Shown here: one piece after another, positions 30,233 through 64,000 of the stretch
Layout: each line of letters starts with the position of its first letter
Numbering within the stretch: position 1 is the stretch's first letter
NCBI GenBank assembly: GCA_040285855.1
Contig: JAUFOQ010000004.1
Coordinates: 1,736,001 to 1,800,000 of the forward strand
DNA from: Eukaryota sp. GEM-RC1
Taxonomy: Eukaryota
DNA: 64,000 bases
Direction: 5' to 3'
The notes under the pieces: generated by a model
What the model was told of the DNA's origin: nothing
Databases searched by the model: none
What the model saw: the letters and a program-made list of their open reading frames with translations, nothing else
Made by a program: the position numbers and the translations under genes

Positions 30233-32698
30233 ATGATATTATACAACAAGTATAAAGAGGTCGAAGACTAGTTGACAGAAAGCACTAGTACAACTTGTAG
30301 TAGATCGAATTGAGATCTTTTCATGAATTTGGCTCTTCTGGTTTGTGTTATAACTTTTTCTTTTCCAACTTCCTGGCCTGAACGGTCATACTCTTGACTT
30401 GCATTATCATCCTTACTTTCATGTCTGAACATTTCATTGACTTTTGATTCTTTATTATTCATAACATCTCGTAATCGTTTCACATGCTTGTGTCTTGGAT
30501 TTGATGAGTTTATTAATTCAGGACGCTGAGCTTTTCTACCATGGGTAGCTTCGAATATATTGAAGCTCTTCACTCGATGTCATCTTTTCGATCACAGTTC
30601 CGTTTTCATCTTAATATGTGTTTTGCTGATGAAATCTGTTGGTTCTTTATGTCAATTGTCACAGTTGCCAACATTGTCTTGTCAATACTTCATCTCTATT
30701 TTGTCATTCATAAACCAGCATTTTATTGTCTTGATACTGCCACTAACTAGTGTTCATTTCAAATTTAGGCCACAATTCGATGCTGTTTTTGTATATAAAC
30801 TACATTTAATACTACATGTCATACTTGTCATGAAACCAGGTGGTACAAAAACAACCTTTAGTTGTTCAAAGTCCTAACAACAACAAGTCTTATCAGATTT
30901 TATAAGTATATCAGATCATATGAGTTCTTTGATATGTACAGTCTGTCTGCAATTCGATATTGTTCATTTTGTTGATTGTTGTACTTGTCTATAACATATG
31001 TGGTGGTCATATTTTTTAATGCTCCTACTCTTTCAAGAACGTAAAAAGTACTGAAAAACAATTTAAAGTCGTTCTTGACCCTTGAAAATTTTCAGCTATT
31101 GCTAGTATTTTGAACACTTCGAATGATCCACTGAAGGACGGTGAAACAAAGTACGTACAACAAGTTGCTGTATTGAATTCACGAAGACACAAAAGATCGA
31201 CTTTCAGCCCGCGGATTTTTTTGTACGGACATTTTGGTTTTTCTACAAAGGACAGTTTTTTAAAATTTGTTTGAATTGTTGTGTTCATAATTTGGTAAGA
31301 AGTTTAACAGACCGTACTGGAAAAGTTAATTTGCATTTCGAATTTTTGGTCAATGTATAGACATCTTGTTCATGTTGTTTGGTGTTAACTACTTTTCGGA
31401 ATTGGGTACTTCGTTTGATAGTTTGTTTTAATCGTCTTTATTTATTTGTTGTTCTCTTGTTGTGTGTGTTTTTTGCACGTATATCCGCTGTACAAAAAAG
31501 TGATAACACGATGGACAATTAATACTTCAAGTGTTCACGCGTTTCGTCTTCTTTCAGTTTTCGTAAGTTTTGGTGTAACAGGTTTTGAATTGGTAAATGA
31601 TTTTGACCTATTGTGTCGTTCTAATGTGAAAGACTCAATCTGTTCTATGTACATTCATCGTAATATTTAGAAATTACTTCTGACTTAGGTAAAACAAACG
31701 CCTTCTAATTACCACTGTAAATAGAGAACGGGGATACATGCACTTAGTTGATGTTGTCCCAGTTGTTTAAGAAGAACTTCTTGTGAATTTTCCTTCTTAT
31801 ATTTTCTAAATTAGTGTTTCTTTTTTCAAGTCATCCCCAACATTTTAAATAATCACACATTTTCCAGTCCATATCTTGGAGGTTTGGGATTTACATCTTT
31901 TAAATGGTGGACTAAAGCAGCTTTCATTGGTGGTGGAAGAAATTGTTTATTCGAGTTTTGTAATCGAAATCCATCAAGAACTTCTCTTCTTGAAAGTACT
32001 TGCAGCTTTCTGAGCTCAATCCATTGTCATTGTTATTCATCAGTTAAAGCAGCTTTCATTGGTGGTGGTAAGAAGTTTTTTCCAGTTCACTAATCGATAT
32101 CCTTCATGAACTGCAGTCCTTGAGAAAGTACTCGCAGCTCCTATCTCAATCATCTCCGTTGTGGAGTATGAAATCTATTTCCCGGGTTATAGTCATCTTG
32201 TTTTCCTGTTGATATCAAAGAAATTCCATGTTGAAACATTTTGTCTTTACAATGTGCTTTAAAGAAACTCCAAAAATATTTCCAGAAAAAAAATGACTAC
32301 GCTTGTAGACCACCATTAGAAATTTTTACAAACTCGAAAGACGAACAAAAGCAGTGCAATCTAGGGAGTTTAGTTCACATCATTTGTAAAAAGTGTATTA
32401 ATAATTCATGTCCTTAACAATCGTTTCCATTACAATTTTCAATCTTTTCCAATTAGCTAGAACTGAACAATAACTATTCGATGAGTGTTACAAAAGTCTT
32501 ATAGATGAATGAAAACTGTTTTTAACACAGAAAACAAAAATATTGAATAAATACCATACATAACAAAACAGTGACAGATTTAGCATAACCAGTTCTGGCT
32601 GGTTTGTTTGATGATACAGATGTGACAAATCGTTTGGAAATAGCCGTGGTGATGTCATATTTGCTGGTCTTGACGGATCTTTCATTATTGCTGATGTT

Positions 32699-33079
32699 AT
32701 GTCTATCGATGTTTGTAATGACTCCAACAAGAAACTTGCTAAATCTAATGCTAAAAACCCCTTGTTGATTGGTGAAAAATTTAAAACGCAAAAAGATTGT
32801 GCTAAATTGAAATTATTGAATTCGACTTCACACTCGAATTACTTGTTGTACCCTTTTGTATTTTCACTGTACGGTTCTTTAGGTGAATCTGCAACATCCT
32901 TACTTGAAATTTTTGTGAAGATTGTAAAAGAAAAAACATCTAGGACTTTTTTTGCTATCTTTAAAGGTATGGTGACTTCTATATCTAGCGCTTTATTATC
33001 TCTTGCCAGACATTATGAGGATAAGGTAGGTGAAAATATCCAGTTAGGCAATCTGGACTTTGAGGATATTGATTATTAG
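32699..33079 (+). mobile_element. 3' fragment of a CRE-like non-LTR element (second RLE subfamily)
   Basis: SIDVC...PLLIGEKFK...YPFVFSLYGSLGESA. Confidence 0.55.
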
Positions 33080-33401: not shown

Positions 33402-33830
33402 CTAGAACTCAATATCATTAAAGCAACAGTCATTGCCATTAAAAGTCACATCAGCTTTTTCTTCATTAAAAACACTAAGAGCTAATAGAGCTTTTGAAAT
33501 CATGATAGGAATTGTTTTAAATATTGTAAAAACAATATGATTCAACCAAAAATTGAAATCAAATTTCTTGTTCATTCTTTTTTTGACCACTTTCTCAAAA
33601 TCAGAGAGAAAACAAAGAGCATCTCTACCAAGTCGACCATAAATTGAAATTGCAAAAGGACATAATTTGTACTCAACATGTCTAATATGCTTGAGAGCAG
33701 TCAATGGTTCATCATATTTGTTTCTCTTGTATTGTTCTGAAGAATTCAGTGGAGAAACTTCATTTTTAGCATCCTTGAATGCACTTTTTTTGCAAACATC
33801 CCTTCTTAATCCACACTTTTCCACCAATGT
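33402..33830 (-). mobile_element. 3' fragment of a CRE-like non-LTR element (RLE tail)
   Basis: DVCKKSA...PLNSSEQYKRNKY...LCPFAISIYGRLGRDA. Confidence 0.65.
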
Positions 33831-33915
33831 TGATGTTGTACTTTATATACTTTGAACAGTTAATAAGGAGAGATTTACAAAATAACTTTGAAACAATAAA
33901 GCAACAAACCTATAA

Positions 33916-37175: not shown

Positions 37176-37909
37176 ACATTTAGTGTGAGTTAACTCAAAT
37201 TAAACTAATTTGTTTTTACACTGTTGACTTTTCCTAGGTTTACACTAGTATTAGAGTTCGAGTTGAACATAGGTTTATATATCTTTAGAATTTACTTTTA
37301 CCTTACCCCTTATAAAGCTAATCAATCAACAACATTGTAATGATGAGTCACTAATCTTATAATATTGAGCTTCTAAATTAGATGTCTTACATCTTCTTAA
37401 CCTCATAACAACTAGTTCAATGAATTCACCATCTTCTAAAAGGCCTAGTTTCATTGAGGTTGAGTCTGACACTGATCCCGATAGCTCTTCTCTCAAAAAA
37501 GCCCCTCAAATTGAATCCAACCTACCTCTGTACCATGTGCACGTGTTTTTGCCATTGCTGGTAACTTAGTATCGCGTAAGAGAAGTTGTCCTTCCGACAC
37601 AAAGGTTAGAAGTCAATTGTATTTGAAATTGTAGTTGGACATCTACTTGTTTGCAAAGGATTTCCATATACATGGTTTGTTTTGTCACTTTGCAAAAATG
37701 GTGTGAATAGAAATCAGAACCGGAAGTTCATTTTTCCACAGAAAATCTCTGGTAATGGTACGAATTACTGCAGTAATCGTAACTGTAGGAATTCTAAGAA
37801 TTCCTGATCGCGCGGTAATTGAAAAGTATGCTCTTAACTCATTCTGCTGTTTAGGTTGATGACAAACAAACCTTTTTATGGAATAAAAACATTAAAATAA
37901 ACACACATA

Positions 37910-38088
37910 CTAGAATTCAATATCATTAAAGCAACAATCATTGCCATTAAAACTCACATCAGCTTTTTCTTCATAAAAAACACTGAGAGCTAATAGAGCT
38001 TTTGAAATAATGATAGGAATTGTTTTAAATATTGTAAAAACAATACGATTCAACCAAAATTTGAAATCAAATTTCTTGTTCATTCTTT
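37910..38088 (-). mobile_element. Short RLE tail copy, close to 33402-33580
   Basis: Nucleotide near-identity with 33402-33580, extending into the 3' UTR. Confidence 0.7.
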
Positions 38089-38107: not shown

Positions 38108-38306
38108 ACATTTGTAATGACAACATTTGTAATGACAACATTTGGTGATACAACATTTGTAACTACAACATTTGTAATGACAACATTTGTAACTACAGCA
38201 TTTGTAACTACAACATTTGTAACTACAGCATTTGTAATGACAGCATTTGTAACTACAACATTTGTAACTACAACATTTGTAGTGACAACATTTGTAATGA
38301 CAACAT
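38108..38306. repeat. 15-bp tandem array, ~13 units
   Basis: ACA(A/G)CATTTGTAA(TG/CT) repeated head-to-tail with no unique spacers. Confidence 0.9.
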
Positions 38307-38665
38307 GATTTTGAGAATTCCAACATCATAGCTGTGGGCATCTAATGCACATCCGATGTCAGTCGAAGTTCAACGGTTGTCCCAGCAGATGTTTGCTTTT
38401 CATTTATTTACTACAGAAACCGTTGAAGTGTCTCATTAACTACGTATAATGAGGCACACAGTGCCTCTCAACCGATTAACTGTCTATTCTAATGTTTACA
38501 TAAATCAATTTCAATGTCAATTTGTTTTATATATATTTTCATTACTAGATTGCATATTACTAGAACCATATCAAGGAGTAAATCATAAATTATACATTGG
38601 TGTTGTAGGTAGTTGAGTGGTTCAGTCAACACAGAATTTCTTCAAAAGGAATCATTTCTGTCCAC

Positions 38666-39885
38666 ATGTGTCTAAAGTTGGAACGTTCTTCCGGAAGAAC
38701 TTCTTCTGCTCTCCCAATACATATCTCAACTCAACATCTCCACTCCATTCAATCCATAGATAGGAAAACATGGTTAGAAGGGGTTGTTTGTGCTTCTTTG
38801 TTTTGCTCCTACGTGTTGTTTCCATCATCTCAATGGAAACGGAATCTCGCAGAAGATGGAGATGTTGAGACTAATCCCGGCCCACCCCATACTCAATCAT
38901 GTTTCTTCAATGTTTGTCATTGTTATAACAACAATCCCTTTACTGTTGTAACCTCTACGGACAGAGTTCTAAACATGTTCCAGTTCATACATGACAATGC
39001 TTTGGCAATTGTCCAGTATACTGATGAGCCTCAAACTCCTTATTTCGTCGTCATATACAACGGTAAAGTACAACATCACTTGCCACTCGCATATATTTTG
39101 CCAAGTGTACAGTTTACCAAAATCGAGTTTCTCAAACAAACTGACAGATCAGCTGTTAAAGAAATAATTTTTGTAGAATCTGAAGTAGTCCGTCGTATCA
39201 CTGCAGATATTGCACACATGGCCATTGGCAATCCGGAATCTGATGCATTGCCATCATCAGTATTAAAGCAGTTGTATGACTGCATTTGTTTCTTGTCTTT
39301 CAAACAAACAGCACATCAAGAAACAACTCAAATATCACTTGAATCACCTGATTTCTGTATTATTTCGTCTTCAGACAGTGAAAGCAATCAATCTGACAAT
39401 TACTGCTAATTGTCAGCAGTCGTAAATTTTCTTTTTCATGTCAACATTTTGTTAGACGTGTTTAATACGACGCTATTGAACTCAATTCATCACAAAACGT
39501 GACTTCTGCATTATGCCATTGTTTTGACAACATTACTAATGAATTTCATCTTCTACATCGTTCAGTTTCAGCATTCTTTCCTGAGTTTTTATCTGGGAAA
39601 CAGGATCCATTTAATTTTTTAGCAAAACTGTCGTACCTTCTTGATATAGAATTTCGTGCAACATTGGAACATGCTAACAGTAATGACATGGAGAAGTTTG
39701 GTGCATTGTCTCAAGACATTGAATCTGAAAAAATCCTAAAGGAACTAAAACATTCAAGTGTTGTTAACATTTTTTCTTTCAAGGTTGAAACAAAGGACAA
39801 ATTCTTACAACACATGAAAGTTTGTCTAATCTATCGATTTATCTTTTTGAAAAAAGGTTGTGTGAAGTTAACAATGAACTTTATA
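38666..39885 (+). pseudogene. Decayed ORF: leader, 2A peptide, unknown domain, USP (C19) deubiquitinase-like N-terminal part
   Basis: RNLAEDGDVETNPGP (38840-38884); Cys-box-like SNQSDNYC*LSAVVNFLFH; F.SGKQDPFNFL resembling the QQD motif; cut off by GAGCCGGCT repeats. Confidence 0.55.
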
Positions 39886-40248
39886 GATGGGAGCCGGCTC
39901 AAAATTTGATCACGGCTCAGCCGCAGGCATTAGCCAGCCGGCTGCGGCTTACAGCACATATTAGCCAGCTCAAGCCGGCTGAAGCCGGCTCAGCCTCATC
40001 GAGTTTTGTTTCGAGTATTTGGGCAGTTGCTTAAAAGTTTTATTGACTTGTTGGTTGATATATCAGTAAAATGATACAAAACCATTGTTAATGACAACTA
40101 CACCGAGTTTCAGAACGACACAATACATACACCATTGATCAGTATATTCCAGTTTTCACAGATTTTACATGTGACTTATTTTTGGGATTATCACTTATAA
40201 ACTTGACGTTGATCAGTTAGTAATTACTTGAATCTTGAAATCTTTGAA

Positions 40249-43096
40249 TGTTAATGACATGAATTCTGAATACATATTTACACCAATGTTTTATATATAT
40301 AGCAATGCACACTCATCCAACACTATATAAGTTTATTCGATAACCCATAGTCATTTGTATTAGTATCATAAACTAAAAAAAATTCCTACAATAATCTCTC
40401 AAATATTTTACATAAAACTCCACAGTAGTTTTGACATTTTCGAGTGGACATTTCTGACTCTTACTGATTCATGTTGTGGCTGATTTAGTTTACTTGGTTC
40501 AGATAGTTTAATTTAATGTAAATAAGGAAAATACAACCGTTAAGAATTCTGAAGTCAAAAAGTCATCTTATATGTTAGTCTGATGACAAATTGAAGAAAT
40601 TTGGAACCTCGCCTTGGGGTTTTTGGATAGTCTGAAGATTTGTTTGGTGTTGACAGTTATCTAGTGATTCGGAAAAGTGAGCTATCAATTTCCAGAAATG
40701 CGCCAAATGCGCCAAATGCGCGCATTTTGACGCATTTTGACGCCTTTAACGCATTTGGGATTTTGTGATCTTGTGCATTTTAACTTTGAGATTTTTTTCG
40801 AATTGTTTTTAATGTGCTTCTGTATAAGTCTCTATATACAATTACAGTGATGTTGATCTCAAAACAGTGTTTTGCAGTACCTCTTACGTTGGACAAATGT
40901 AAAGTTGTATTTTATACAATTCAATGAACATTCTTTTGATATCACAATGTGAATTGGTTTAAAATCTGTGAAGTTAGTGGGATTCAACCAAAACCTTTGA
41001 TCAAAAGTCTGTTTTAACCATTTATACGAACAATGTAAATCGATACAAAACCATAAACGGTTAATATTGTATAAAATACTGAATGAAATATAGTTTAAAG
41101 ACCATTGAATTGTATGTTCCATAAGGAAGAAGAAAGAAGAACAAGTGACAAATTAACTACATGCTTATCAGCAAGCTTTACAACAAGTTTCATATATGTT
41201 TTGATGGTACGGGAACGACTTTCTTGTTCAGAAGTATTTCTGAGTTTGAAGATTGAGTAGGACATGGAAAATTCTGGTATAGACTTTATTACAGATTTCG
41301 TTCCAGACAAGTGAATTTACATTCATTACTTCATTACTTATTGGAATTAATTCATTTTCTTCTCGTCTACGAATATACCTGGCTTTATAGCAAATGAATT
41401 CAGAAGAGAACTAACGAAGTCAATGAGTTTGGTTATACGATTGACACTCTTAAAGACTTCTTAAGTAATCACTAATGGTAACGGATGATGTTATAACTAA
41501 TAACATTAGTTAGAGTTGTTTTGATGTTTTGACACTCTTGTACTGTAGTATCTAGACTGGGATGACTGAAACATTTCATTTTCCTCTATCCACAAATGTT
41601 GGTTGTTTTACATTCTAACAGACACTCTGCTCCGTACAAGGCTCCTCTTTTGGCGCAATCCAATTTTGAGGCGGAATCCCCTGCTTGGATTCTATCTCCG
41701 TTGAGTCGATATATAAATAGCTTTTTCTATGTTGTGAAAAAACTTCCATCTCTGCTGTTGTATGTACTCTACTTCTATTCGTGTGTTATCCCTTCCCGTC
41801 CTCCGTTCCCAAAAAACCTCACCGCCGACGGTGACATTGAGTCCAATCCCGGTCCGTTGTCCAAAGACTCCCTAGAGTATCTGAATCCTGGCCAATGGAT
41901 AGATGATGACGCCCTTTCTGAATACTCAAAACACCTATTCAAAGAAGCAAACCTCGATCGGGAATGCTATGTCATTACTCCAGGTGAGATGTGGTCAGAT
42001 TTTTTCACTGATGGATACTGCCAAAATAAGATTGATGACGCCCGGGAGAGAAGCACCAGATACTTCGATGTTCCTCTCAACGATGCTATGAATACAACAG
42101 GTGGATCTGGAGGAGTTCATTGGGGTCTAATGGTAATAGACTATGCGGAAACAACGCGATATTTGTGGATCCAATTGTTGGTTCTTCTTGTCTAAGTTCT
42201 GTTGTAGATGAATTATGTAGGAAAGTAACATTGAACGTACAGAGGCTCAACATCACCAAGACACAGACTCCTAATGACTGTGGTATTTATGTTATTGGTT
42301 ATATTCAAAAATTTGTTGAACTCATTTCAAGGGATCGCATCAATCTATCTTTGATCTCTATTGAACGTGCTTTAATCCAAGTTAACAATGAACTTAATGC
42401 TGCAGATCTCCGTAAACAGATTCAAAAATTGTTTACTTATGTTGACGATCAATTGTTCATCAAATATTCCAAAATACTTGTGGAATCAACAGGTTTAATC
42501 TTTTATGACTATGTAATTGGGCCAACTGATTTATATCCGTTATTATATGGTGACCAACCCTATAATAAATATCCATTTTCGGATTTTTTGACGCAGAAAT
42601 TCTTCCAATGTAGTGAAAAGAAACACCAACAAATGCTACTTATTCCTGTCAATAGTGCAATGTGTGATCTTACTGCTGATGGTCGTCATTGGGGTTTAAT
42701 TATTCTGATCATTTCATCTCCTACAAGTCATATTTTATTCATTGATCCGACCTACGTTGAGGATGATTATGCCAGAGAATTTCCTGCTAACCAAACGCCA
42801 GTTGCACCAACTTCCTCCAATTTATTTTTAATTGTTTCACAAATTTATTCAGTGTTGTCATTCTGTGGAACCAGAAATATAGAATTTATTCCATCAAATA
42901 TCAAACATACTCTAACTGACTCTGGTTTTTGTGTTCTCGAATACATTGAACTTTTAATGAATTTACATCAATCTGTGGTCATAAGGTGGACTGATGTTAA
43001 AGAACTGCTGGGTAATACCACTATTGCTGTTCACGAGTCTCGAAGTAAAATTTTGGAACATTTTGAAACTTTTAGTCCTGTTGAGTTGTCGCATGT
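40249..43096 (+). repeat. Arm 1 of a long near-identical inverted duplication (partner 55077-58036)
   Basis: Reverse-complement match from TGTTAATGACATGAAT (40249 / 58036) through the leader, 2A and both protease domains. Confidence 0.95.
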
Positions 43097-46000
43097 GCCA
43101 AAAATGCCAGCCGTCCCTCCAAAACGTTTGTCCAGTTCAAGTGTTTCAACCGGTGCCACTCCTCAAACTAAAGTTTCTGCCATTAACTTATTGCCACCGA
43201 CTGTATCAAAACCTGTTCCTGCGTCTCTCACAGGTTTGCGTCTAGCTAGCACTAAAGCATCCACTGGTTTAAGCACCAAAAAAAGTAAACCCAAACTTGC
43301 ATCACCAAGAGGTTCACCTCTATCTAAACAAAAGGAATCCAGAACAACCAACTCCCTTGTATCAACTGGTATCACTCCTCAAACTAACATTTCTGTGACC
43401 ACCGTATCTGAACCCGTTTCTACGTCTCCAACTCCCAAACCATCAATTACAGAACAAGAACCCAATCAATCACAAAAGTTCTGTTTAATTGAGATAAAAA
43501 GTGTGATCTCAGATCCTGAACGCTTGAATCTTAAAGTCGTTCGAGTTAAACAGGAGCCAGAAGTAGACGAAGAGATTGAATCAACTTCAGAAGGTATTCC
43601 ACAAATTCAGGATACTACTTTTGAAATTCAGCGTGATCCAGATTTAGATCCAATTGTGTCAATCTCTCTTCAGTTTACCCATGATAAATTTGCAAATGAA
43701 ACTCACCTATTCACCCATAATGTTTCAGAAATTTCACTTCCTAATTGTGTAGTTCACACGTTTACAACTGAAAAATCAATGTTAACAAATTTCATTACAT
43801 TTTTAAATCTTAACAAGCCCATTTTGTTAATAAGTTATGATTGGCATTTAGATACTTTTCCGTTTTTAGTATCACGATGTAAGAAATTAGAAATTGACAT
43901 TGATTATACAATTGATGATTACATTTCTTCTCTTCCAACTTGGTTCCACAGATGGTGCAAACCAACGGAAATTGGTCCTTTTATTCCCTTGACTTGAATT
44001 CAGTATTGAAGAAGTTGTATGTCTTTAGAAGAGGTCGGTTTTTGGAAAACGTGACCACAATTATGATGGACATGAATAATCATTCAAGAACATTTGAAAG
44101 TTTTGACAATGAAAATATCTTCCTTAAGAGAATATTTCATTCTTTAGACAATCCTCTAGTGTCAGATGAAGAAATGAAGGTTAAAACTGAAGAACGTCAA
44201 AACAAAGCGCCATCTGTGAAACTAAAACCCAAGGCTGTTATGGAGATTCGATTGTTAGCAGAATTAACAAAACTTAATGAACTTTGGGAATCTAAAACTT
44301 CGAGAGACACTTCGAGAACCACTTTGTTATTGAACTCAATCAATAAGTTGTTTCTGATACAATACCTTCTCTTTGATCTTCTCGATGAAAAAAGCAAAAA
44401 TTAAGAGAACGACCACCAATGAAGACAGTGAAGAAACGATTAGATAATGTTGTATCAAAGACTAAAGCCAATTGGATGGAGTCTTGTGCTAAGAGAGCTC
44501 ATCAAGTCAGAGTTCGTGGTACTCATATGTTGAAACATTTTTTCGTTACTAAGTTTCACAACTCTCTAATTTTCGACAAGGTCAAAGAGATACTACCTCC
44601 CACTGTTAAAGAAGAAATTGAAACAGACACTGAAGTTTCAGACACTGAACAAACAGAAATTTTAAGTGAAGAGTTTGTGCCTCAACAATTAGAAGAAGAA
44701 ACTGAATTGCCTGTGACTTCAGACCCTGATTTTGGTTTGGATCGTACAATTGAATCCGAAATTTCAGAAGAAGACAGCCAAATTTTAGAAGAAGACAGTA
44801 TTGAAAATGAAACTGGTGAACCTGAACTTGACCTTTTTACTAAAATTCAAACTACCAAATTTGAATTACCAGACTGGGGAGCTTACTTTAAGTTGGGTCC
44901 AATGGGACAACTGTTGGCCATGATGTGGATTCCAAATCACCAATTTTTCAACAGTACTGATCATATTAAAACTGTGGAAAACTCGTTAAAAAACATCATT
45001 TCTAATGTTAAAACAAAACCTACAAAGAAGGAGTTCGCCCAACACTTCCTATCAAACTACATCCCTCTGTTAGAAACTGCTGGTGAAATGGTTGGTAAAG
45101 ATAGGATCGTGTTTCCAAGTGGACTATAATTGGCTAATCCTCTCGGTTACGTTGCAACCGAAATTATTGCTAATTATAAGAACAACATGAGCCAACACCT
45201 TCATGAGTATGTTTTTCAAGTCTTTAACTTGGTTACTCAAAAGAAAGAGAGAATGGAAGCTCTTACTGACAAAACCCAAAGACAAGAACTCTGTCAAAGG
45301 ATTAATGAAGTTAGAGAATTGATCATTAATGGTGAAATTTCCAAAATTAATTTTGATGACAAGCAAGTTTTTACCAATCCGGAATCTCACTTGAGTATAT
45401 TATTCTTCAATTATTTGTTTAATTATTTTGAAGGAAAGATGGAGAAAACGATCTACTATGCCGAAAAGAGTGATCCGTTATACTTTTTAAGTCATGCATT
45501 ATATTTGAACCGTCTCATTGAAGACTATTGTCCTGGTGTAAGAGCAAACAATCCTTTCCCGTTGTCTAAATCTTTAATTCCAAATCATATCAGGTTCGAT
45601 ACGCAATGGTTTCATACAATATTTCGCAGGGATATTCCCAATACTGTCAACTATAATGATGTACGGAAACTTATTTGGAATTCAGTATTTAAACCTCAGG
45701 CTATTCCAGAGTCATTATCCTATGACTTTAAATACACTTCAATTTCGTCAGACGGTTTAAGTTGTAGTTTGTTGATGATGAGGAAAGATTTACTTGATGA
45801 AAATGGAAATGCCCGTGAAAATGTTACAGCAGTTAATCTTGCTTCAAATGAGCGTTATATTGATTCCTTAAGTGAAGATGAAATTGAAGAACTGAATTTA
45901 AAATCTAAGAGAATTGTTGCTTTTGACCCCAACCAACATGATCTCATGTATTGTGCAAGTTTAAAAACTGATGAGGAAGAGACGTGTGAGAAATTTGAAG

Positions 46001-47654
46001 TTGATGAAACAAAACAATTGATAGAAAATTGGAATGACTAATGCTTGTGTTACAGAAGTTGATCTTGCTTCCAATGAACAATCTGTTGATTCCTCAGACG
46101 AGAAAGATGATTCCTCAGGTGAGAAAGAAATTGAGCCCAAGCCAGTTACCCCAACTAGAAAAAGAAAGATTGCTCCATTATCTTCTAAGAAAAGGGGAAG
46201 TTTGAAAAAAATGAAAAAACAATTAAATGATTGGAAGCAAGACACTAACCCACAACCTGTAAAGTGGAAAAGGCGTGACAAATGGAAGGTGTTCCGATAC
46301 ACTGCTGGGGAGAGAAAGGCAGATATTAACAAATCTAGATGGAAACCAAGAAAAAAATCAGCCATCACAGTTCCCAAAAAAATTGACAAAGAAACAAAAA
46401 AAGAAAAAAAGCTAAAAAGGAACGAAAGAAAAAAAGAAATTTCAAAAAACTTGAAAGAAATCGCTGTAACAAAAACATTGTCGAATTGACTGAAAGTGAA
46501 CGTTTACAGATGTACTCAACTGAGTTTGAGAAGAGTGTGTGGAATGGTCAAAAGTACTGGATTCCTACAGTTCTGATACTCCAAGAAGAAAATCATGTAA
46601 ATTGGAAGAATTTTCAAGGTACATGGTTAACAATGAAGTTTTCTGTGCATTAATGAGATCAACCACAACTGGAAAAGCAACTGCTGAAGGATTACCTAAA
46701 AAGAAAGGACCATCTAAGAAACTACCTAAGACAGGACCAACTCAACAAATACCTGCTGCAGCTGAAGGTCTTTATGAAGAGAAATTTTTTAGACGTAGAC
46801 GCCTTACCCAATATTCAAGAAAAGAACGAAGTGAACAAAACTTGGTCCACAGATTAGCTCTCCAATATGGTGATCCAGATGAAGTCGTTGTTGGTTTTGG
46901 GGATTGGAATGACACTCAATTCCGAAGAAGAAGGGGTAAGGCAAGTACAGTAAAAGGCGCTACTCTTCGAAAATTACTAAGAAAATTTGGATTTAAAGTT
47001 TTCTTAGTTGATGAATTTATGACAAGCAAATGTTGCTCTGCTTGTGCTGCTGAAAACCAGGAAGGTATCTGTTCCAATCCTGACTTTGTCAAAGTCACTG
47101 ATCCTAATTGGAAGAAGAAGTTGCAGAATGAGGAGAAGAAATTGAAAAAAGAAATTATGGAACACAATCAATTAGACAATGTTGTGAAACGTAATTTTGA
47201 TGATGAATGGACCAAACAGTTGCCATTCATGAAAGAAAGATTAAAGAGCAAAAAAGTCTCACCATGGGGCTTAGTCCAATGTGCTAAATGTCATGTCCTC
47301 TGGAATAGAGACTTCAACTCTGCTATTAACATTTTAAACATTGTAAATGGAATTATCCAAGGTCAAGGTAGACCTGCTGTCCTCGAGAGACCAAAATCTC
47401 AAACAATAACTATCGAGGATGGTGGGATTACAGATCAGGTTCCCAAGAAGATAAAGAGTGTGAGTAAGTGTCAGTTTTGTCATATGGAAGGCCATACAAC
47501 GGCAAAGTGTCCTCAAAGACCTGTGCCTCCTAAAAGTCCTCGTACATGTACGATATGTAGACAACCAGGACATGATAGAAGAAATTGCCCAAGTAAGGCC
47601 CAGAAAGATGTACCCAAAGACTCACAAGTAGAGAATGAAGAACCGGAATCCTGA
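41596..47654 (+). CDS. Fanzor1-type RNA-guided nuclease polyprotein, copy 1 (2A, 2x SENP8/Ulp1-like, PolB-exo-like, Fanzor, 2x CCHC); several frameshifts and one in-frame TAA at 45127
   Basis: DIESNPGP (41833-41856); HWGL..D..DCG; SSDGLSCS; RuvC-I IVAFDPN (D 45925); VGFGDW; RuvC-II LVDEFMTSKCCSAC (E 47013); CAKC..WNRDFNSAINI (D 47310). Junctions can be bridged by single-base indels and are collinear with copy 2. Confidence 0.85.
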
Positions 47655-47753
47655 ATCTTATAAGTTAGCTCGTCCTAAAAGGCTTGCAAATGAGTGGCAC
47701 AATGTGTCAAACTGTGGTGATAGTGCATTATGCATTTGAAATGAAATCCACAG
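47652..47753 (+). ncRNA. Putative Fanzor omegaRNA scaffold, copy 1
   Basis: Non-coding blocks after the stop are conserved with copy 2 (AAGTTAGCTCGTC, AATGAG, AAACTGTG, TTATGCATTTG). Hairpins are predicted by eye, and similarity ends abruptly at CAG. Confidence 0.6.
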
Positions 47754-47756
47754 AAT

Positions 47757-48073
47757 CGGTGTTCGAAATTTCCCATGTGTTGTTTAAAGGACACCAAGTC
47801 GGTGTTAACACGCGTGTCCACACGGTGTTTTTGATGTGTCTTTTGGTATTTTGACCACTTTTTGTTGGCATTGCAGTCTATTGTGGTATAACATATATAA
47901 AATCATTCAAGTCGAACAATACCGAGGGAAATAAAAGGGTACTTTCAAAGTTTTCTAGGTTTTTTACAGAAAAACACGCACACACGCGGTGTCTTTTTGC
48001 GTGTCTTTTTGCGTGTTTTTGAAAAGACACCGTGTCCGTGTCCAAACGTGTCCACGCGTGTCTTCCAACACTG
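47757..48073. mobile_element. Small hAT-type MITE (GTGTC/GACAC family)
   Basis: Ends CGGTGTTCGAA / TTCCAACACTG (9 of 11 match); GTGTC repeats at both ends; flanks CACAGAAT and GATTGAAT (partial TSD). Confidence 0.6.
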
Positions 48074-48576: not shown

Positions 48577-49322
48577 TAGGACTGTCCAGGTTCGGGCTCT
48601 AACCTGGGTTCGGACCCAGGTTCCAGATTAGGTTCCCAACACTGAGGTTCCGGTTCCAGTCAGGTTCTGAACATCAAGGTTCCGGTTCCGGTTAGGTTCT
48701 GAACACTAAGGTTCCAGGTTAGAACCTCGAACCCTTTTTTCCTTCATTTAGTATGTTCAAGTTTGTTCTATTAGTAAAATTATTAAATCATATCTTTCCC
48801 CTAAGAGTAATATTGATGCACATGACGTAGAACCTCTTCACGTCGACTCTTCCCCTTCGCCTGCTCCTCCTCCGAATCCACCAAGACAATCATCATCACA
48901 ATCAAACTGGATGTATAAATATAATTGGGTTTGGTGTCTTTACTTCAGCATTTTATGGCACAATAATATTATACATATTCATTATATGCTATCAGGTTGA
49001 GCTTTGTTTCATGCAGAATTGCTCGGAAATTCTGAATATGTAGCCATCGTCACTGCAACTTTTAGACATGAAATTATTTACACCAAATGTATTCAGTTTC
49101 GTTCTGTTCTTCATAATGCTGTCAGATATGTGTCTAGTGTTTCATGGTTTTTATTTTCATATTGATTTTTGTGCCCTTCATCGATAAACTATTTTTTCAT
49201 TGTATCTTATTAAAGTCGGGTTCTAAAAGTTCCCAGGTTCTAACCCCGCAGGTTCAGGTTCCAGTCAGGTTTTGAAATAAGAGTTTTAGATCAGAACCAA
49301 AACCCGAACCTGGACAGTCCTA
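48577..49322. mobile_element. hAT-type MITE, same family as 9783-10868, opposite orientation
   Basis: Perfect TIR TAGGACTGTCCAGGTTCGGG; TSD AAGATTAG / GAGATTAG. Confidence 0.9.
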
Positions 49323-49570
49323 GAGATTAGGATAAATGTGAGTGTTTGAAAATATACATCTGAATCAGAATGCTTATTCTGAAACTTTGCCTATTTTGGA
49401 AATTTAATAAAGAAAAGGATGATCAAACACTTTGATCATCCGTTATGGGTTAATCCTATTTTAAATGTTTCAATGACTTCATTAACGTTTTTTATTTCAA
49501 AATCATCATCAACGAAAATGATATGAAAAACATACATTAGTTCAAATCGGTTCACGGATTTTAAAACATT

Positions 49571-50783: not shown

Positions 50784-50936
50784 CTGGGAATGCATTCCAA
50801 ATGCATAAGGGCATAACCCTTCACATTTTCATGATCTCATATAGAGCAAAACTCACAGTTTGAACAAATGTCTAAATTATTAGACAAATATCCTCATTCG
50901 CAAAGTCTTTTAAGACGAGCTAACTTCATAGATTCA
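50784..50936 (-). ncRNA. Putative Fanzor omegaRNA scaffold, copy 2
   Basis: Same conserved blocks as copy 1 with longer inserts, e.g. hairpin TGTCTAA/TTAGACA at 50869-50886; ends ...TTCCCAG. Confidence 0.6.
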
Positions 50937-53900
50937 AGATTCCTGATCTTTCTGGTTTACGAGGGAGTCCTTGGGTACATCTTTCTTAGGCTTATTTGGA
51001 CAAGTTGCTCTGTTATGCCCAGGTTGAAAACATATACCACACTTTTTAGGACCTCTGACAGTTGTTGGAGGACGTTTTGCCTTACCCTTACCCTTACTCA
51101 CAGTCTTTTTCTTAGGAATCTGATCTGTATTCCCGCCATCCACGACAGGTGTTGTTTGAGATTTTGGTCTCTCGAGGATGGCAGGTCTACCTTGACCTTG
51201 AATGGTTCCATTTACAATATTGTAAATATTGATAGCAGAATTGAAGTCTCTATTCCAGAAGACATGACATTTAGCACATTCAACTAAGCCCCATGGTGAG
51301 ACTTTGTTGTTCTTCAATCTCTCTTTCGATAATGGCAACTGTTTGGTCCATTCATCATCAAAGTTACGCTCCACAATATTGTCTAATTGATTTTGTTCCA
51401 TAATTTCCTTTTTTAATTCTTTCTCTTCCTTATGTAACTTCTTCTTCCAATGAGGATCAGTGACTTTTATCCTTTCAGGATTGGAACAGATACCTTCGTC
51501 GTTTCTGGAAACACACGCAGAGCAACATTTGCGGGTCTTAAATTCATCAACTAGGAACACTTTAAATCCAAATTTTCTCAATAATTTCCGAATTGAAGCA
51601 CCTTTTTTCAAGTCGATGCTTTACCTCTTCTTCGACGAAAAGCAGTGTCGTTCCAGTCTCCATACCCAACAACGACTTCATCTGGGTTACCAAACTGGAG
51701 AGAAAATCTGTGAAGCATGTGTTTTTCACTTCGCTCCTTTCTTGAATATTGTGTTAGACGATTCCGTCTAAAACACTTTTCTTCATAAATTCCTTCAGTA
51801 TTTCTTTGATCAGTAGTGGGTGATCGTAGTAAAGAACAGGCAATTTCTTTACCAAGAACAAAAGCAGAATACTGAGTCAATTCACAAGATTTACTACCTG
51901 GCGAGTTAGAGCCCCATTGATCTAAAATTTGTTGCCCATTTATGTCAATGCGTCTGCCATCTGGACTGTGAATAAATTGGGTAGAATATTGTTGTAACCG
52001 TTCGGATTCAGATAAACGGTAGAGATTCTATCGTCTTATTTTCTTCTCCAGCTTCCTCTTCTTTCTATTAGCTCTTTTTCTTTCCTTCCTTGTTTTTTTC
52101 TTTTCCATGGAGACTTTTTTAATATCGGCATTGCGCTCCCCAGCAGTGTATCTGAATACTTTCCAATTATCACGATTTTTCAACTTGACAGTTGTTGGTT
52201 TGTCAATAGTTGGTGCGTCTTTCCAATCCTTCAATTCCTTTTTCAATTTTTTCAAACTTCCTTTTTTCTTTGATGACTTTGGAGAAATCTTTCTTCTTCT
52301 GAGTTTGGTTGATGTATCGAAACCTTCGATTTCCTTTTCCTCCTTAGATTTTAAAGAAGCACAATACATCAAATCATGCTGATTAGGATCAATAGCAACA
52401 ATTCTTTTGGATTTCAAATTTAAGTTTTGAATTTCCGTGGAACTCAAAGAATCAATGTACCTGTCGGTACTTGTGTAGTCGACTGCTTTCAATTTCTTAT
52501 GAGGATTTCCTCTCCCATCAAGCAGATCTTTCCGCATCATCATTAAACTACAGCTAACTCCATCTGTAGAAATAGAACTGTATTTGAAGTCATGAGACAA
52601 TGACTTTGGAAGACACTTTGGTTTCAAAACTGAGTGCCAAATATCTTTTCGAACTTCATCAATGTTACCTTTAATTTCTGATGCATAAACTTCTTTAAAC
52701 CATGAAGTATCCAACCTAATATGATTAGGAATCAATGATTTTGTTAGAGGAAAAGGATTATTGGCAGTAACACCAGTACAAGAGTCTTCAACAAGACGTT
52801 TCAAATACACTGCATGACTTAAGAATTTCAAAGGATCCACTTTTTCAGCATAATAGATTGTTTTTTCCATTTTACCTTCAAAAAAAGTAAACAAATAGTT
52901 AAAAAATAGTAAACTCAGTCTAGAATTGGGATCAGGAAACACTTCAACGTCTTGAAAATTAATTTTTCAAATTTCCCCATTAATGATCAACTGTCTGACT
53001 TCATTAAGCTTTGTACACAACTCTTGTCGTTTATTCTTATCAGTAAGCTTGTTAAGTCTATCTTTTTCAGGGTAACCAAATTAAATACTTGAAAAACATA
53101 TTCGTGAAAGTGTTCACTCATGTTAGTCTTGTAATTCGTTATAATTTCAGTAGCCATGTAATGCAATATACGAGATAAACGATGACTACTGGGAAACACA
53201 ATCCTATCAAGTCCAACAGATTCAGCAGCTAGTTCTAAACGAGGAATGTAATGAAACAGGAAGTGTTGAGCAAGCTGATTTTGAGTTGAGGCCTCATTTG
53301 TTTCAGAAATTATGTTTGTTAACGATTCTTGTACAGTCTTAATATGATTCTGGTTGTTTACAAGTTTTTCCTCCCTAATCGTCATCATAAATAACACTTG
53401 TTCCATTGATTTCAACGTAAAAAAATTCTTCCAGTCTGGCAATTCAATTTTATTAATTTGATTTTTAGTCCAAAGGTCAGGTTTAGGTTCACCACTCGCA
53501 TCTTCAATATTTTCTAATTTAACGGGAGGAGCAGTAGCATCGATAGACTCTGAATGTACATCTGTTTCTTCTTCAGTTGACTCATCTGTATCAGAATTCA
53601 TTTTTTCCTTAACAGTTACATTTGGAACAGTAGCAGGCAGTAACTTCTGAATGTAACCTAAAATACCAGAATGGTGAAAATTATGAACAAAAAAATGTTT
53701 CAAAAAGAGACTACTACGGACTCTTACTTGATGAGCTCTCTTAACAGGAGATTCAATCACTCTAACCTTACAACATTGTCTAGTCGTTTCTTAACCACTT
53801 TCATTGGTGACTTTGACCGTAATGTTTGCTTTTTGGGATCCAATAGGTCAGCCAACAAGTACTCAATCAGAGGTAATTGTTGAATTGAGTTCATCAACAA

Positions 53901-56690
53901 TAGCGGTCTTGTCGATTCCTTGGCCCAAAGTTCATTTACTTTCTCCAAATTTCTTATAAATTTCTTTTTAATCTTGTCGGCCTTCACTTTGGGATTGTCT
54001 GGAACTAAAACATTAATACTGTCAATTATGCCATGCAAGTTTTGAACATTATTGACCAATTGAACTTCATCAGGATCAGAGTCATGATTAAGTTCTTCCA
54101 AGCGTTTGACAGTTTCATTTTCAGAAAAATTATTCATTTCAAGGAAAATTTGAACAACATTTTCCAAAAAACGGCCACCAGTAAAGACATAAAAATTCTT
54201 CAATACAGCATTCAAATCGAGACTAAAAAACGGACCAAAAGTTGTTTCCTTACACCGTTTATTGAACCAAAAGGAAATGTAGGGTTTAAATTCTGGAAAA
54301 GTAAACGTTGTATTGATTTTGAGGACTTGACAACGTGATACAAGAAAGGGAAATGTATCTAAATGAAAATCATAACTCACAAACAATCGTGGACAATGTT
54401 GAGTAATGAAGGAAATGAAGTTTTTAAGCATACTGGATTCACTGTTTGAAATATGTAAAGTACACAAATCCAAGTTTGTAGTATCAAAATTGCCATGAAA
54501 AAATATATTTTTTTCATTAAACTCATTGTGATCAATGATCTGGATGGAAATTGATACAATCAGATCAACAGAAGAATCACGTTTAACTTCTAATTGATTT
54601 TCAAATTCACCTTCAAAAGTTTCAATGTCATCATCATCTTGAACAAGTTGAACATTTCTACCATTAATTTTTTTCTTTTTTGGCAAAATCACTTTGAACA
54701 TGGATTAAACAAAAGTTGGCATATTATTCCATAATAAAGGGGATTTAACAAAGTCTTGAATTTTTATTTCTTGTTGTTCGATAGGCTCTGGATTTCTTCT
54801 TGAATTGGCGATGGATACGACATAATGGAGGCCTTAATTTTGGGTGGTAATTCAGATGGTGGTAATTCAGATGATTCCAATGTGGACATACGGCGGTGAG
54901 TCTTTCGTATGGGAGTGGCACCAGTTGATACAAGGGAACTGGTAGTTCTAAATTTATTTCGTTTAATTAAAGGTGAACCTCGTGGTGATGGAATATCAGA
55001 AATTTTGGCCTTACTTTTTTTAGTGCTTAAACCAGTAGATGTTTTAGACGTTTACCTGAGATTGGTGACGCAGAAACATGCGACAACTCAACAGGACTAA
55101 AAGTTTCAAAATGTTCCAAAATTTTACTTCCAGACTCATGAACATCAATAGTGGTGCTACACAGCAGTTCTTTAACATCAGTCCACCTTATGACCACAGA
55201 TTGATCTAAATTCATTAAAAGTTCAATGTATTCGAGAACACAAAAACCAGAGTCAGTTAGAGTATGTTTGATATTTGATGGAATAAACCGTATATCTCTG
55301 ATTTCAAGGACTGATGAAACTGAATAAATTTGTGACACAATTGAAAATAAATTGGAGGAAGTTGGTGCAACTGGCGTTTGGTTAGCAGGAAATTCTCTGG
55401 CATAATCATCCTCAATGTAAGTCGGATCAATGAATAAAATATGACTTGTATGAGATGAAATGATCAGAATAATTAAACCCCAATGACGACCATCAGCAGT
55501 AAGATCACATATTGCACTATTGTCAGGAACAAGTAGCATTTGTTGGTGTTTCTTTTGACTACATTGAAAGAATTTCTGTGTCAAAAAATATGAAAATGGA
55601 TATTAATCATAGAGTTGGTCACCATATAATAACGGATATAAATCATTTGGCCTAATTACATAGTCATAAAAGATTAAACCTTTTGATACCACAAGTATTT
55701 TGGAATATTTGATGAACAATTGATCGTCAACATAAGTAAACAATTTCTGAATCTGTTTACGGAGATCTGCAGCATTAAGTTCATTGTTAACTTGGATTAA
55801 AGCACGTTCAATAGAGATCAAAGATAGATTGATGCGATCCCTTGAAATGAGTTCAACAAATTTTTGAATATAACCAATAACATAAATACCACAGTCATTA
55901 GGAGTCTGTGTCTTGGTGATGTTGAGCCTCTGTACGTTCAATGTTACTTTCCTACATAATTCATCTACAACAGAACTTAGACAAGAAGAACCAACAATTG
56001 GATCCACAAATATCGCGTTGTTTCCGCATAGTCTATTACCATTAGACCCCAATGAACTCCTCCAGATCCACCTGTTGTATTCATAGCATCGTTGAGAGGA
56101 ACAGCGAAGTATCTGGTGCTTCTCTCCCGGGCGTCATCAATCTTATTTTGGCAGTATCCATCAGTGAAAAAATCTGACCACATCTCACCTGGAGTAATGA
56201 CATAGCATTCCCAATCGAGGTTTGCTTCTTTGAATAGGTGTTTTGAGTATTCAGAAAGGGCGTCATCATCTATCCATTGGCCAGGATTCAGATACTCTAG
56301 GGAGTCTTTGGACAACGGACCGGGATTGGACTCAATGTCACCGTCGGCGGCGAGGTTTTTTGGGAACGGAGGACGGGAAGGGATAACACACGAATAGAAG
56401 TAGAGTACATACAACAGCAGAGATGGAAGTTTTTTCACAACATAGAAAAAGCTATTTATATATCGACTCAACGGAGATAGAATCCAAGCAGGGGATTCCG
56501 CCTCGTATTGAGTCAAATACAAACAACAAGATGGCAGCATGACATCAACGGGAGAGGAGAACAAGCTATCCATATATCGACTCAATGGAGATAGAATCCA
56601 AGCAGGGGATTCCGCCTCAAAATTGGATTGCGCCAAAAGAGGAGCCTTGTACGGAGCAGAGTGTCTGTTAGAATGTAAAACAACCAACAT
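50934..56690 (-). CDS. Fanzor1-type polyprotein, copy 2 (same architecture, one CCHC); frameshifts and an in-frame TAA at 55603
   Basis: DIESNPGP (within 56316-56360); protease and exo-like domains; STDGVSCS; IVAIDPN; VGYGDW; LVDEFKTRKCCSAC; CAKC..WNRDFNSAINI; CGICFQPGHNRATC. Confidence 0.85.
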
Positions 56691-58036
56691 TTGTGGATAG
56701 AGGAAAATGAAATGTTTCAGTCATCCCAGTCTAGATACTACAGTACAAGAGTGTCAAAACATCAAAACAACTCTAACTAATGTTATTAGTTATAACATCA
56801 TCCGTTACCATTAGTGATTACTTAAGAAGTCTTTAAGAGTGTCAATCGTATAACCAAACTCATTGACTTCGTTAGTTCTCTTCTGAATTCATTTGCTATA
56901 AAGCCAGGTATATTCGTAGACGAGAAGAAAATGAATTAATTCCAATAAGTAATGAAGTAATGAATGTAAATTCACTTGTCTGGAACGAAATCTGTAATAA
57001 AGTCTATACCAGAATTTTCCATGTCCTACTCAATCTTCAAACTCAGAAATACTTCTGAACAAGAAAGTCGTTCCCGTACCATCAAAACATATATGAAACT
57101 TGTTGTAAAGCTTGCTGATAAGCATGTAGTTAATTTGTCACTTGTTCTTCTTTCTTCTTCCTTATGGAACATACAATTCAATGGTCTTTAAACTATATTT
57201 CATTCAGTATTTTATACAATATTAACCGTTTATGGTTTTGTATCGATTTACATTGTTCGTATAAATGGTTAAAACAGACTTTTGATCAAAGGTTTTGGTT
57301 GAATCCCACTAACTTCACAGATTTTAAACCAATTCACATTGTGATATCAAAAGAATGTTCATTGAATTGTATAAAATACAACTTTACATTTGTCCAACGT
57401 AAGAGGTACTGCAAAACACTGTTTTGAGATCAACATCACTGTAATTGTATATAGAGACTTATACAGAAGCACATTAAAAACAATTCGAAAAAAATCTCAA
57501 AGTTAAAATGCACAAGATCACAAAATCCCAAATGCGTTAAAGGCGTCAAATGCGTCAAAATGCGCGCATTTGGCGCATTTGGCGCATTTCTGGAAATTGA
57601 TAGCTCACTTTTCCGAATCACTAGATAACTGTCAACACCAAACAAATCTTCAGACTATCCAAAAACCCCAAGGCGAGGTTCCAAATTTCTTCAATTTGTC
57701 ATCAGACTAACATATAAGATGACTTTTTGACTTCAGAATTCTTAACGGTTGTATTTTCCTTATTTACATTAAATTAAACTATCTGAACCAAGTAAACTAA
57801 ATCAGCCACAACATGAATCAGTAAGAGTCAGAAATGTCCACTCGAAAATGTCAAAACTACTGTGGAGTTTTATGTAAAATATTTGAGAGATTATTGTAGG
57901 AATTTTTTTTAGTTTATGATACTAATACAAATGACTATGGGTTATCGAATAAACTTATATAGTGTTGGATGAGTGTGCATTGCTATATATATAAAACATT
58001 GGTGTAAATATGTATTCAGAATTCATGTCATTAACA
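55077..58036 (-). repeat. Arm 2 of the inverted duplication (partner 40249-43096)
   Basis: Direct reverse-complement match; carries an extra 114-bp unit in the leader. Confidence 0.95.
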
Positions 58037-63968: not shown

Positions 63969-64000
63969 CTCCTTGTGGGAAGTGGGGCTTCTATCCTCAG

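What the first reader, a model, noticed from the sequence alone, without database searches (positions are those of the whole stretch)
41596..47753. Giant Fanzor polyprotein: 2A skip peptide, tandem SENP8/Ulp1-like proteases, PolB-exo-like domain, Fanzor RuvC, zinc knuckles and its own omegaRNA-like tail
Seen: the ORF pieces join into one ~2000-aa frame via single-base indels and one TAA, and the same domain order recurs in the diverged copy at 50934-56690. All three RuvC acidic residues and the CxxC...CxxC zinc module are intact in both copies. Known: DP/GDW/DE..TS..C..C/NRD.N and TDG..CS motifs typify Fanzor1, the eukaryotic TnpB relatives, which are normally much shorter proteins. Inference: a self-processing RNA-guided nuclease polyprotein carrying ubiquitin-like protease modules. 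I know of no described Fanzor with this architecture, and no transposase is encoded within it.
Basis: partly seen in the sequence, partly recalled or inferred. Interest (0 to 1): 0.95.

Follow-up and report, generated by a model that had tools for sequence, protein, structure and literature searches.

The report
Giant Fanzor fused to ubiquitin-like protease
An unclassified eukaryote carries dozens of copies of a likely mobile element whose RNA-guided DNA cutter (Fanzor) is likely made as one ~2,000-residue protein, together with a predicted ribosome-skip signal, a protease predicted to act on ubiquitin-like tags, and two domains that have lost their catalytic residues.

Summary
The pieces at 41596-47654 read through as about 2,020 aa with seven breaks. 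Sibling copies in the same organism run open across every break, and the calnexin gene in this window has three similar single-base frameshifts, so most breaks are likely assembly errors. Domain order: leader, 2A motif, SENP8-like C48 protease with an intact triad, second C48 domain with Cys replaced by Ser, low-complexity linker, PolB exonuclease fold without its catalytic acids, Fanzor1 with all three RuvC acids and the C4 zinc finger, two CCHC knuckles. At least 40 predicted proteins carry the C-terminus, the family lies on at least 12 contigs, and at least three subfamilies join the exonuclease fold directly to Fanzor; both parts show dN/dS near 0.3. No terminal repeats or transposase were found. 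Likely a transposase-free Fanzor1 element with accessory domains; no such architecture turned up in ten literature searches. No reads, expression data or whole copy were available.

The parts
40249..41595 (+). Non-coding upstream region shared at 99.7% with copy 2; holds the unknown 5' end of the element
   Evidence: the shared stretch begins about 34 nt inside an unrelated repeat, so 40249 is likely a recombination edge, not a proven end
41596..41802 (+). Variable leader peptide; one unit of a 114-bp in-frame repeat (two in copy 2, three in some siblings; other siblings have unrelated leaders)
41803..41856 (+). 2A-like StopGo motif ending D-I-E-S-N-P-G-P
   Evidence: kept in 11 of the 12 stored proteins that cover it as D[IV]ExNPGP, one with Thr; activity untested
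41857..42437 (+). C48 (CE-clan) protease, SENP8/NEDP1-like fold, His 42118, Asp 42168, Cys 42279 intact; break 1 lies inside it
   Evidence: sibling P0004 passes Pfam PF02902 cut-off; profile and fold searches; residues
42438..43085 (+). Second C48-like domain, catalytic Cys replaced by Ser (42921): predicted pseudoprotease
43086..43466 (+). Ser/Thr/Pro/Lys-rich linker
   Evidence: S 19%, T 14%, P 14%
43467..44392 (+). PolB 3'-5' exonuclease-fold domain lacking ExoI and ExoII acids: predicted pseudonuclease
   Evidence: PF03104 above cut-off in both copies
44395..47423 (+). Fanzor1 nuclease (about 1,010 aa, with acidic, basic and zinc-finger insertions); RuvC D 45925, E 47013, D 47310; C4 zinc finger 47034 and 47280
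47469..47588 (+). Two CCHC zinc knuckles (one in the other subfamily)
47655..47743 (+). Conserved 3' tail, candidate omegaRNA scaffold; the guide would be the next 15 nt or so
   Evidence: no Rfam match
50793..58036 (-). Second, inverted, mosaic copy: near-identical 5' part, second-subfamily 3' part, likely decayed; its tail ends 41 nt before the ATG of a 393-codon ORF

Best explanation
This is one copy of a dispersed multi-copy element that likely encodes a single ~2,000-residue protein in which an intact-looking Fanzor1 nuclease is joined to a predicted ribosome-skip peptide, a SENP8-like protease with its triad intact, and a second protease domain and a PolB exonuclease domain that both lack catalytic residues; it likely moves with the help of a transposase from elsewhere in the genome while Fanzor would cut empty sites to keep and spread it. 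Steps: (1, shown) domain order, family spread, purifying selection on exonuclease fold and Fanzor. (2, inferred) one open frame in intact copies. (3, predicted) the 2A drops the variable leader, so the working protein starts at the protease whatever lies upstream. (4, inferred from known Fanzor1) the 3' tail plus about 15 nt of flank forms the omegaRNA and guides a cut at the empty site, repaired from the filled copy; such repair would also explain the module swapping between subfamilies. (5, inferred, weakest) the protease removes NEDD8, SUMO or ubiquitin from host or element proteins to blunt silencing or degradation, and the two dead domains serve as binding modules, for a ubiquitin-like tag and for DNA ends.
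For: All seven breaks are open in siblings. Calnexin-like gene 18773-20415 has three single-base frameshifts. 8 of 21 close sibling alignments that end early do so beside a run of 6 or more equal bases, background 5%. Long open predicted siblings: P0034 997 aa from leader to Fanzor N-part, P0059 937 aa exonuclease fold to RuvC-I, P0078/85/86 644 aa REC to C-terminus. Clusters of 14 and 26 members hold the C-terminus; 12 different contig lengths among the records; no local clustering. dN/dS copy 1 vs copy 2: exonuclease fold 0.29, Fanzor parts 0.25-0.34. A Fanzor profile hits only the three Fanzor1 structures. The modelled protease matches NEDP1/DEN1 best by TM-score (0.55-0.57). Fanzor1 in non-autonomous transposons, and restorative homing, are described (PMC10530073 section 7; PMC13565253 passages).
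Against: No whole ~2,000-aa copy was found; the longest is 1,098 aa. Siblings are gene predictions and can hide breaks as introns (P0003 does at break 1). Break 1 is shared by both window copies, and the TAA is a substitution, so these two copies may be truly broken; slippage mutations also favour base runs. Breaks 6 and 7 are bridged only by the other subfamily. No terminal inverted repeat or target duplication was found, so the helper transposase is unnamed. Copy 1's tail is not more stable than shuffles. The pseudoprotease shows dN/dS 0.82 between the two copies and is absent from some siblings (P0007, P0034), so it may be unconstrained. dS of the exonuclease fold is near saturation (pS 0.69). 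Substrate of the protease is unresolved: NopD, Ulp2 and SENP7 rank above SENP8 by sequence.
Confidence: 0.55

Rival explanations
1. The element needs no transposase at all: it spreads only by Fanzor-made breaks repaired from a filled copy (RNA-guided homing and ectopic gene conversion), with the fused domains steering repair.
For: No transposase and no terminal repeats. Copies are mosaics: identity between the two window copies falls stepwise from 100% to about 50% within the element, the shared 5' stretch starts inside an unrelated repeat, and leaders, protease types and linkers occur in mixed combinations.
Against: A guide taken from the flank targets only the same empty site, which does not by itself put copies at new sites on 12 contigs (inference). 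The window holds MULE and hAT-like transposase genes that could act in trans. Ordinary ectopic recombination also makes mosaics.
Confidence: 0.2
2. A self-processing polyprotein: the C48 protease cuts the chain, as CE-clan proteases of large DNA viruses do (recalled), and frees Fanzor.
For: Intact triad in the first domain; poxvirus I7L appears lower in the fold search; a Gly-Gly at aa 1945, before the knuckles, is kept in both subfamilies.
Against: Only three Gly-Gly sites in 2,021 positions, two inside the protease and none between protease, exonuclease fold and Fanzor. The fold is closer to NEDP1 (TM 0.55-0.57) than to I7L (0.45). The exonuclease fold's last helix runs into the Fanzor start with no linker.
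Confidence: 0.12
3. The modules are separate genes or nested decayed elements, with a free-standing Fanzor starting at Met 44419.
For: A Met at the Fanzor start is kept in all three subfamilies except P0059, so an internal start is possible; the window copies have real-looking stops; no whole copy is on record.
Against: 21 stored proteins from three subfamilies, about 40% identical in this region, cross the exonuclease-Fanzor joint with no stop and no gap; protease, linker and exonuclease fold share one 652-codon ORF in the window.
Confidence: 0.08
4. A domesticated host defence gene family (RNA-guided antiviral nuclease with a ubiquitin-like protease).
For: Purifying selection; intact catalytic sites in most copies.
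Against: Dispersed copies 87-99% identical within subfamilies, broken copies, variable leaders; no guide array seen in the window.
Confidence: 0.05

Closest known systems
Fanzor1 nucleases SpuFz1, PpFz1, GtFz1 (PDB 8GKH, 9CF0, 9CER; PMC10432273, PMC11423790)
   Same: Rearranged RuvC triad with DPN, DE and RD motifs, C4 zinc finger, collinear REC/WED region; conserved tail right after the stop.
   Different: Most Fz1 are 600-700 aa (PMC11423790 passage), some about 800 (PMC10711439 passage). Here the part from Met 44419 alone is 1,077 codons, ends in CCHC knuckles, and is fused to about 930 aa of other domains. No terminal inverted repeats found, unlike the SpuFz1 loci.
Non-autonomous Fanzor1 transposons (hAT, EnSpm, Helitron2 CRe families; PMC3627910, PMC10530073)
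   Same: Fanzor as the only nuclease of a dispersed multi-copy element, no transposase inside.
   Different: Their ends are recognisable; here none was found. In the passages read their extra enzymes (GIY-YIG, methylases) are separate ORFs, not fused.
SENP8/NEDP1/DEN1 and other C48 proteases (PDB 1XT9, 2BKR; NopD 8OI3)
   Same: Fold (TM 0.55-0.57 to NEDP1), W...HW...D...Q..DCG motifs, long loop before the His.
   Different: About 20% identity; substrate unknown; second domain lacks Cys. C48 domains as cargo of MULE, Helitron, Zisupton and NeSL elements are recalled, not from a call.
2A-bearing non-LTR retrotransposons (L1Tc, Ingi, CR1/L2; PMC3708506 listing; bioRxiv 10.64898/2026.06.17.732966 passages)
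   Same: Class A-type 2A near the N-terminus of a mobile-element protein; the preprint also reports 2A ORF2 proteins fused to OTU or Josephin deubiquitinases.
   Different: No reverse transcriptase or APE here; the downstream enzyme is an RNA-guided nuclease and the protease is C48.
PolB proofreading exonuclease (Pol delta, archaeal PolB); DEDD exonucleases as transposon cargo (PMC6431247, PMC3627910 passages)
   Same: Fold and sequence profile.
   Different: No polymerase domain; catalytic acids lost in all 26 same-organism proteins covering ExoII; fused to Fanzor.

Membership tests
Fanzor1 | RuvC triad D/E/D with the E moved to just before the zinc finger | tested here: met
   D 45925, E 47013, D 47310 align with SpuFz1 motifs; SpuFz1 catalytic residues from PMC10432273
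Fanzor1 | C4 zinc finger (TNB domain) | tested here: met
   PF07282 above cut-off in both copies; CxxC at 47034 and 47280
Fanzor1 | Closer to Fanzor1 than to Fanzor2, TnpB or Cas12f | tested here: met
   Profile A6 (11 family pieces plus 5 outside Fanzor-like proteins) hits only PpFz1, SpuFz1, GtFz1 at E<=0.01; single window pieces hit SpuFz1 first; no tree was built
Fanzor1 | Structured omegaRNA encoded after the ORF | tested here: inconclusive
   Five shared blocks, conserved first 40 nt and variable hairpins after, as described for Fz1; z 0.71 and -2.74; only two copies; no RNA data
Fanzor1 | RNA-guided, TAM-dependent DNA cleavage | not testable with these tools
   needs bench work
Fanzor-bearing DNA transposons (hAT, MuDR, Mariner, Helitron, EnSpm) | Superfamily transposase inside the element | tested here: not met
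   no transposase family on any ORF piece of either copy
Fanzor-bearing DNA transposons (hAT, MuDR, Mariner, Helitron, EnSpm) | Terminal inverted repeats, hairpins or target-site duplications | tested here: inconclusive
   tail against upstream region not above shuffles (6 and 14 of 200 reach the score); 5' end not located; only two copies as DNA
C48 / Ulp1-SENP proteases (first domain) | His-Asp-Cys triad and oxyanion Gln in the CE-clan fold | tested here: met
C48 / Ulp1-SENP proteases (second domain) | Catalytic Cys | tested here: not met
   Ser in the window and in 7 of 7 stored proteins that carry this domain
SENP8/NEDP1 deneddylases | NEDD8 specificity | not testable with these tools
   best TM-score to NEDP1 but best E-value to NopD; about 20% identity
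PolB 3'-5' exonuclease | Fold | tested here: met
PolB 3'-5' exonuclease | ExoI D-x-E and ExoII D (motif names recalled; ExoII mapped on a true PolB) | tested here: not met
   E-I-K and Thr in the window; ExoII acid absent in 26 of 26 same-organism proteins, present in P0014 from another species label
2A StopGo peptides | D(V/I)ExNPGP motif | tested here: met
   consensus as in search listing
2A StopGo peptides | Peptide-bond skipping | not testable with these tools
   14 of 17 new class A peptides were active in PMC12338488; this one is untested

The most novel reading that the evidence does not exclude
A new kind of transposase-free eukaryotic selfish element that spreads by RNA-guided cutting and copying, and whose single protein carries its own counter-silencing ubiquitin-like protease and a captured polymerase proofreading domain bolted onto Fanzor, dead here and still catalytically intact in a related species: a natural Fanzor-exonuclease fusion.
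Probability: 0.2. Interest if true: 0.9.

Novelty: new variant of a known kind. Interest (0 to 1): 0.68.

Why it matters
What Fanzors do in their own hosts is open, and the described ones are compact single enzymes. A recently multiplied family in which Fanzor1 is permanently fused to a ubiquitin-like protease and a polymerase-derived domain points to the host pathways (ubiquitin-like tagging, DNA-end handling) that an RNA-guided element must deal with in a eukaryotic nucleus. About 40 copies with different flanks in one genome would let TAM, guide and ends be read straight from an alignment, so the homing model becomes testable there. It also shows Fanzor1 tolerates a large N-terminal fusion, and extends 2A recoding to a mobile element without reverse transcriptase.

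Tried and rejected
No whole genome is held for the window, so flanks of other copies could not be aligned. Sequencing runs: none was listed; no RNA holder listed; no reads were laid. Long fused relatives elsewhere: the 656-2,000-aa search with the C-terminal piece gave 2 ordinary 668-670-aa Fanzors among 5,783 candidates (weak evidence). The unrestricted search with the protease-exonuclease piece gave 18 hits: 14 labelled as the same organism, 1 as another unclassified eukaryote, 2 PolB-type proteins, 1 (P0020) not looked up. Scans of JGI metagenomes and IMG/VR found no relative; one search gave 3 weak 38-48-residue matches (L001-L003), not examined. Rfam: 2 chance-level hits, neither on the tails. 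Terminal repeats: none above shuffles. Local clustering of copies: not above chance (1 pair vs 0.5-0.7 expected). A changed genetic code was rejected: siblings have Tyr at the TAA and ORFs of 850-900 codons are open under the standard code. A gene boundary at break 1 was rejected: it lies between the catalytic His and Asp. The AlphaFold model of P0059 is usable only for the exonuclease fold (mean pLDDT 47), so it says nothing on packing against Fanzor. VIA-align searches could not be run. The bacterial promoter scan is not applicable. Earlier findings of the scan: four look-ups, nothing relevant.
Full report
What is in the sequence. Seven stop-to-stop ORFs on the + strand cover 41566-47654. 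Read from ATG 41596 with X at each break they give 2,021 positions with seven breaks: five one-base deletions, one one-base insertion and one TAA. The six indels lie in or beside short base runs. An inverted second copy lies at 58036-50793. Its first 2.8 kb is 97-99.7% identical to copy 1, then identity falls in steps to about 50-60% in the linker and exonuclease region and rises to 78-88% near the RuvC end. It has six frame switches and four in-frame stops and is likely truly decayed.

Is it one frame? Three lines say likely yes. First, the assembly has indel errors: a calnexin-like gene at 18773-20415 has three one-base frameshifts. Second, searches returned many predicted proteins of the same family, labelled by NCBI as Eukaryota sp. 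GEM-RC1, an unclassified eukaryote; P0003 among them matches copy 1 itself apart from a predicted intron over break 1. Of 89 stored proteins aligned to the read-through, break 1 is crossed without gaps by 10, break 2 by 27, break 3 by 21, the TAA by 11 (all Tyr), break 5 by 7; breaks 6 and 7 only by 4 and 6 proteins of the second subfamily, with gaps. The counts for breaks 2 and 3 include the window's own copy 2, and break 2 also a true PolB and a protein of another species. Third, 8 of 21 close sibling alignments (85% identity or more, one of them P0003) that end early do so beside a run of six or more equal bases, against 5% of positions (context read from the window copy). Against: no whole copy exists in the collection, the longest being 1,098 aa; gene predictions can hide breaks; slippage mutations also fall in base runs; break 1 is in both window copies. 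No reads were available. I put the single-frame architecture for the family at about 0.85, and this copy being intact at about 0.5.

Domains. The C-terminal half is Fanzor1: two window pieces hit SpuFz1 (E 5e-9 and 8e-10), and a profile hits only PpFz1, SpuFz1 and GtFz1. RuvC D 45925, E 47013, D 47310 and both CxxC pairs are present. From Met 44419 it spans 1,077 codons, against 600-700 aa for most Fz1 (PMC11423790, passages). Upstream, with no linker, is a PolB exonuclease fold (PF03104 above cut-off in both copies; HHalign 97% to a PolB; Pol delta and archaeal PolB as best fold matches). Its ExoII acid is missing in 26 of 26 same-organism proteins and ExoI is degenerate, whereas P0014, labelled as another unclassified eukaryote, keeps both; P0014 ends before the joint, so its fusion to Fanzor is not shown. 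The first C48 domain has His, Asp, Cys and the oxyanion Gln; a model of the intact sibling P0024 (pLDDT 75) matches NEDP1/DEN1 best by TM-score and NopD best by E-value, and by sequence NopD, Ulp2 and SENP7 rank above SENP8, so the substrate is open. The second C48 domain is homologous but has Ser for Cys in the window and 7 of 7 stored carriers. The 2A motif is kept behind at least five unrelated leaders, three of them in-frame tandem repeats.

The family. Two 90% clusters of 14 and 26 proteins hold the C-terminus (15 of the 26 were listed). Records come from contigs of 12 different lengths and are not clustered by locus number. Within subfamilies identity is 87-99%; three subfamilies about 40% identical in the exonuclease fold all run into the Fanzor start. 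Modules are mixed: one or two C48 domains, several protease types, two linkers. Pairwise dN/dS between the window copies is 0.29 for the exonuclease fold and 0.25-0.34 for Fanzor parts, but 0.82 for the pseudoprotease and 0.50 for the knuckle tail; exonuclease dS is near saturation. No relative was found in JGI metagenomes or IMG/VR beyond three weak exonuclease matches.

Ends and RNA. After the stop both copies share five blocks in order, ending at 47743 and 50793, with hairpins of different length between them; the last block has 2 exact matches and one 2-mismatch match in the window against 0.29 expected (the pattern was drawn from these copies). Copy 2's tail ends 41 nt before another ORF, which bounds the element. 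A conserved first stem and a free remainder is the pattern described for Fz1 RNAs, but copy 1 folds no better than shuffles (z 0.71) and only copy 2 does (z -2.74). No terminal inverted repeat was found, and the shared 5' stretch begins inside an unrelated repeat, so the 5' end is unknown.

How it likely works. Shown: architecture, spread, selection. Inferred: one protein; 2A removes the leader; tail plus flank guides Fanzor to the empty site, as in the restorative homing reviewed in PMC13565253 (passages); new sites are reached with a transposase supplied in trans, as for non-autonomous Fanzor1 elements (PMC10530073 section 7), and the window holds MULE and hAT-like genes though nothing ties them to this element. 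The protease likely strips a ubiquitin-like tag to counter silencing or turnover; that role, and C48 domains as cargo of other transposons, are recalled, not taken from a call. Self-cleavage is unlikely: Gly-Gly occurs three times, never between protease and Fanzor.

Novelty. Ten full-text searches with Fanzor plus Ulp1, protease, fusion, DEDD, polyprotein, deubiquit- or exonuclease listed no paper whose title or abstract start describes this. I read passages found by term in PMC10530073 (plus section 7), PMC6338049, PMC3627910, PMC13565253, PMC10711439, PMC10432273, PMC11423790, PMC12338488, PMC6431247, PMC5718144 and bioRxiv 10.64898/2026.06.17.732966, no whole text and no supplement; PMC3708506 only as a listing. 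None of these passages reports a fused Fanzor of this kind. Supplementary Fanzor tables, Repbase and subscription journals were not seen. Each part is known, and 2A plus deubiquitinase occurs in LINE proteins; the combination with an RNA-guided nuclease seems new. Verdict: real, new variant of Fanzor1 elements, interest 0.68.

Noticed in passing
window 38609-39909 (+): A second, unrelated ORF pair led by a 2A motif after a hydrophobic stretch, 340 nt upstream of the region shared by the two copies; no Pfam family for the first ORF and no usable Atlas hit. Suggests 2A leaders are used by other elements in this genome.
   Followed up: partly
window 18773-20415 (+): Calnexin-like gene with three single-base frameshifts, used as a control for assembly indel errors.
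   Followed up: yes
window 47757-48072: Short non-coding element with imperfect inverted ends and internal repeats, 13 nt after the conserved tail of copy 1; looks like a MITE.
   Followed up: no
window 7842-9497 (-), 11590-12462 (+), 27738-28109 (-): MULE transposase, DUF659 (hAT-like, recalled) and SWIM-finger ORFs; candidate helpers in trans, no link shown.
   Followed up: partly
window 60442-63998 (-): LTR-retrotransposon-like ORFs: CCHC knuckle and weak integrase match.
   Followed up: no
window 32615-33079 (+), 33402-33842 (-), 37874-38088, 58003-58200: Repeated relics resembling the C-terminal endonuclease region of a non-LTR element (resemblance recalled; no Pfam hit); one overlaps the start of the region shared by the Fanzor copies.
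   Followed up: partly
window 38108-38306: Thirteen copies of a 15-bp tandem repeat.
   Followed up: no
window 48619-48720, 49196-49325, 9780-10400: Another small repeat family with 32-bp units, one member between the two Fanzor copies.
   Followed up: no
window 13719-18522 (-), 21007-25833 (-): Long Ser/Leu/Phe/Asn-rich repetitive ORFs in several pieces, likely very large surface-protein genes split by the same indel errors.
   Followed up: no
protein P0015 and P0012 (same organism label): More distant C48 proteins; P0015 has two domains that both keep Cys, so a doubly active version may exist.
   Followed up: partly
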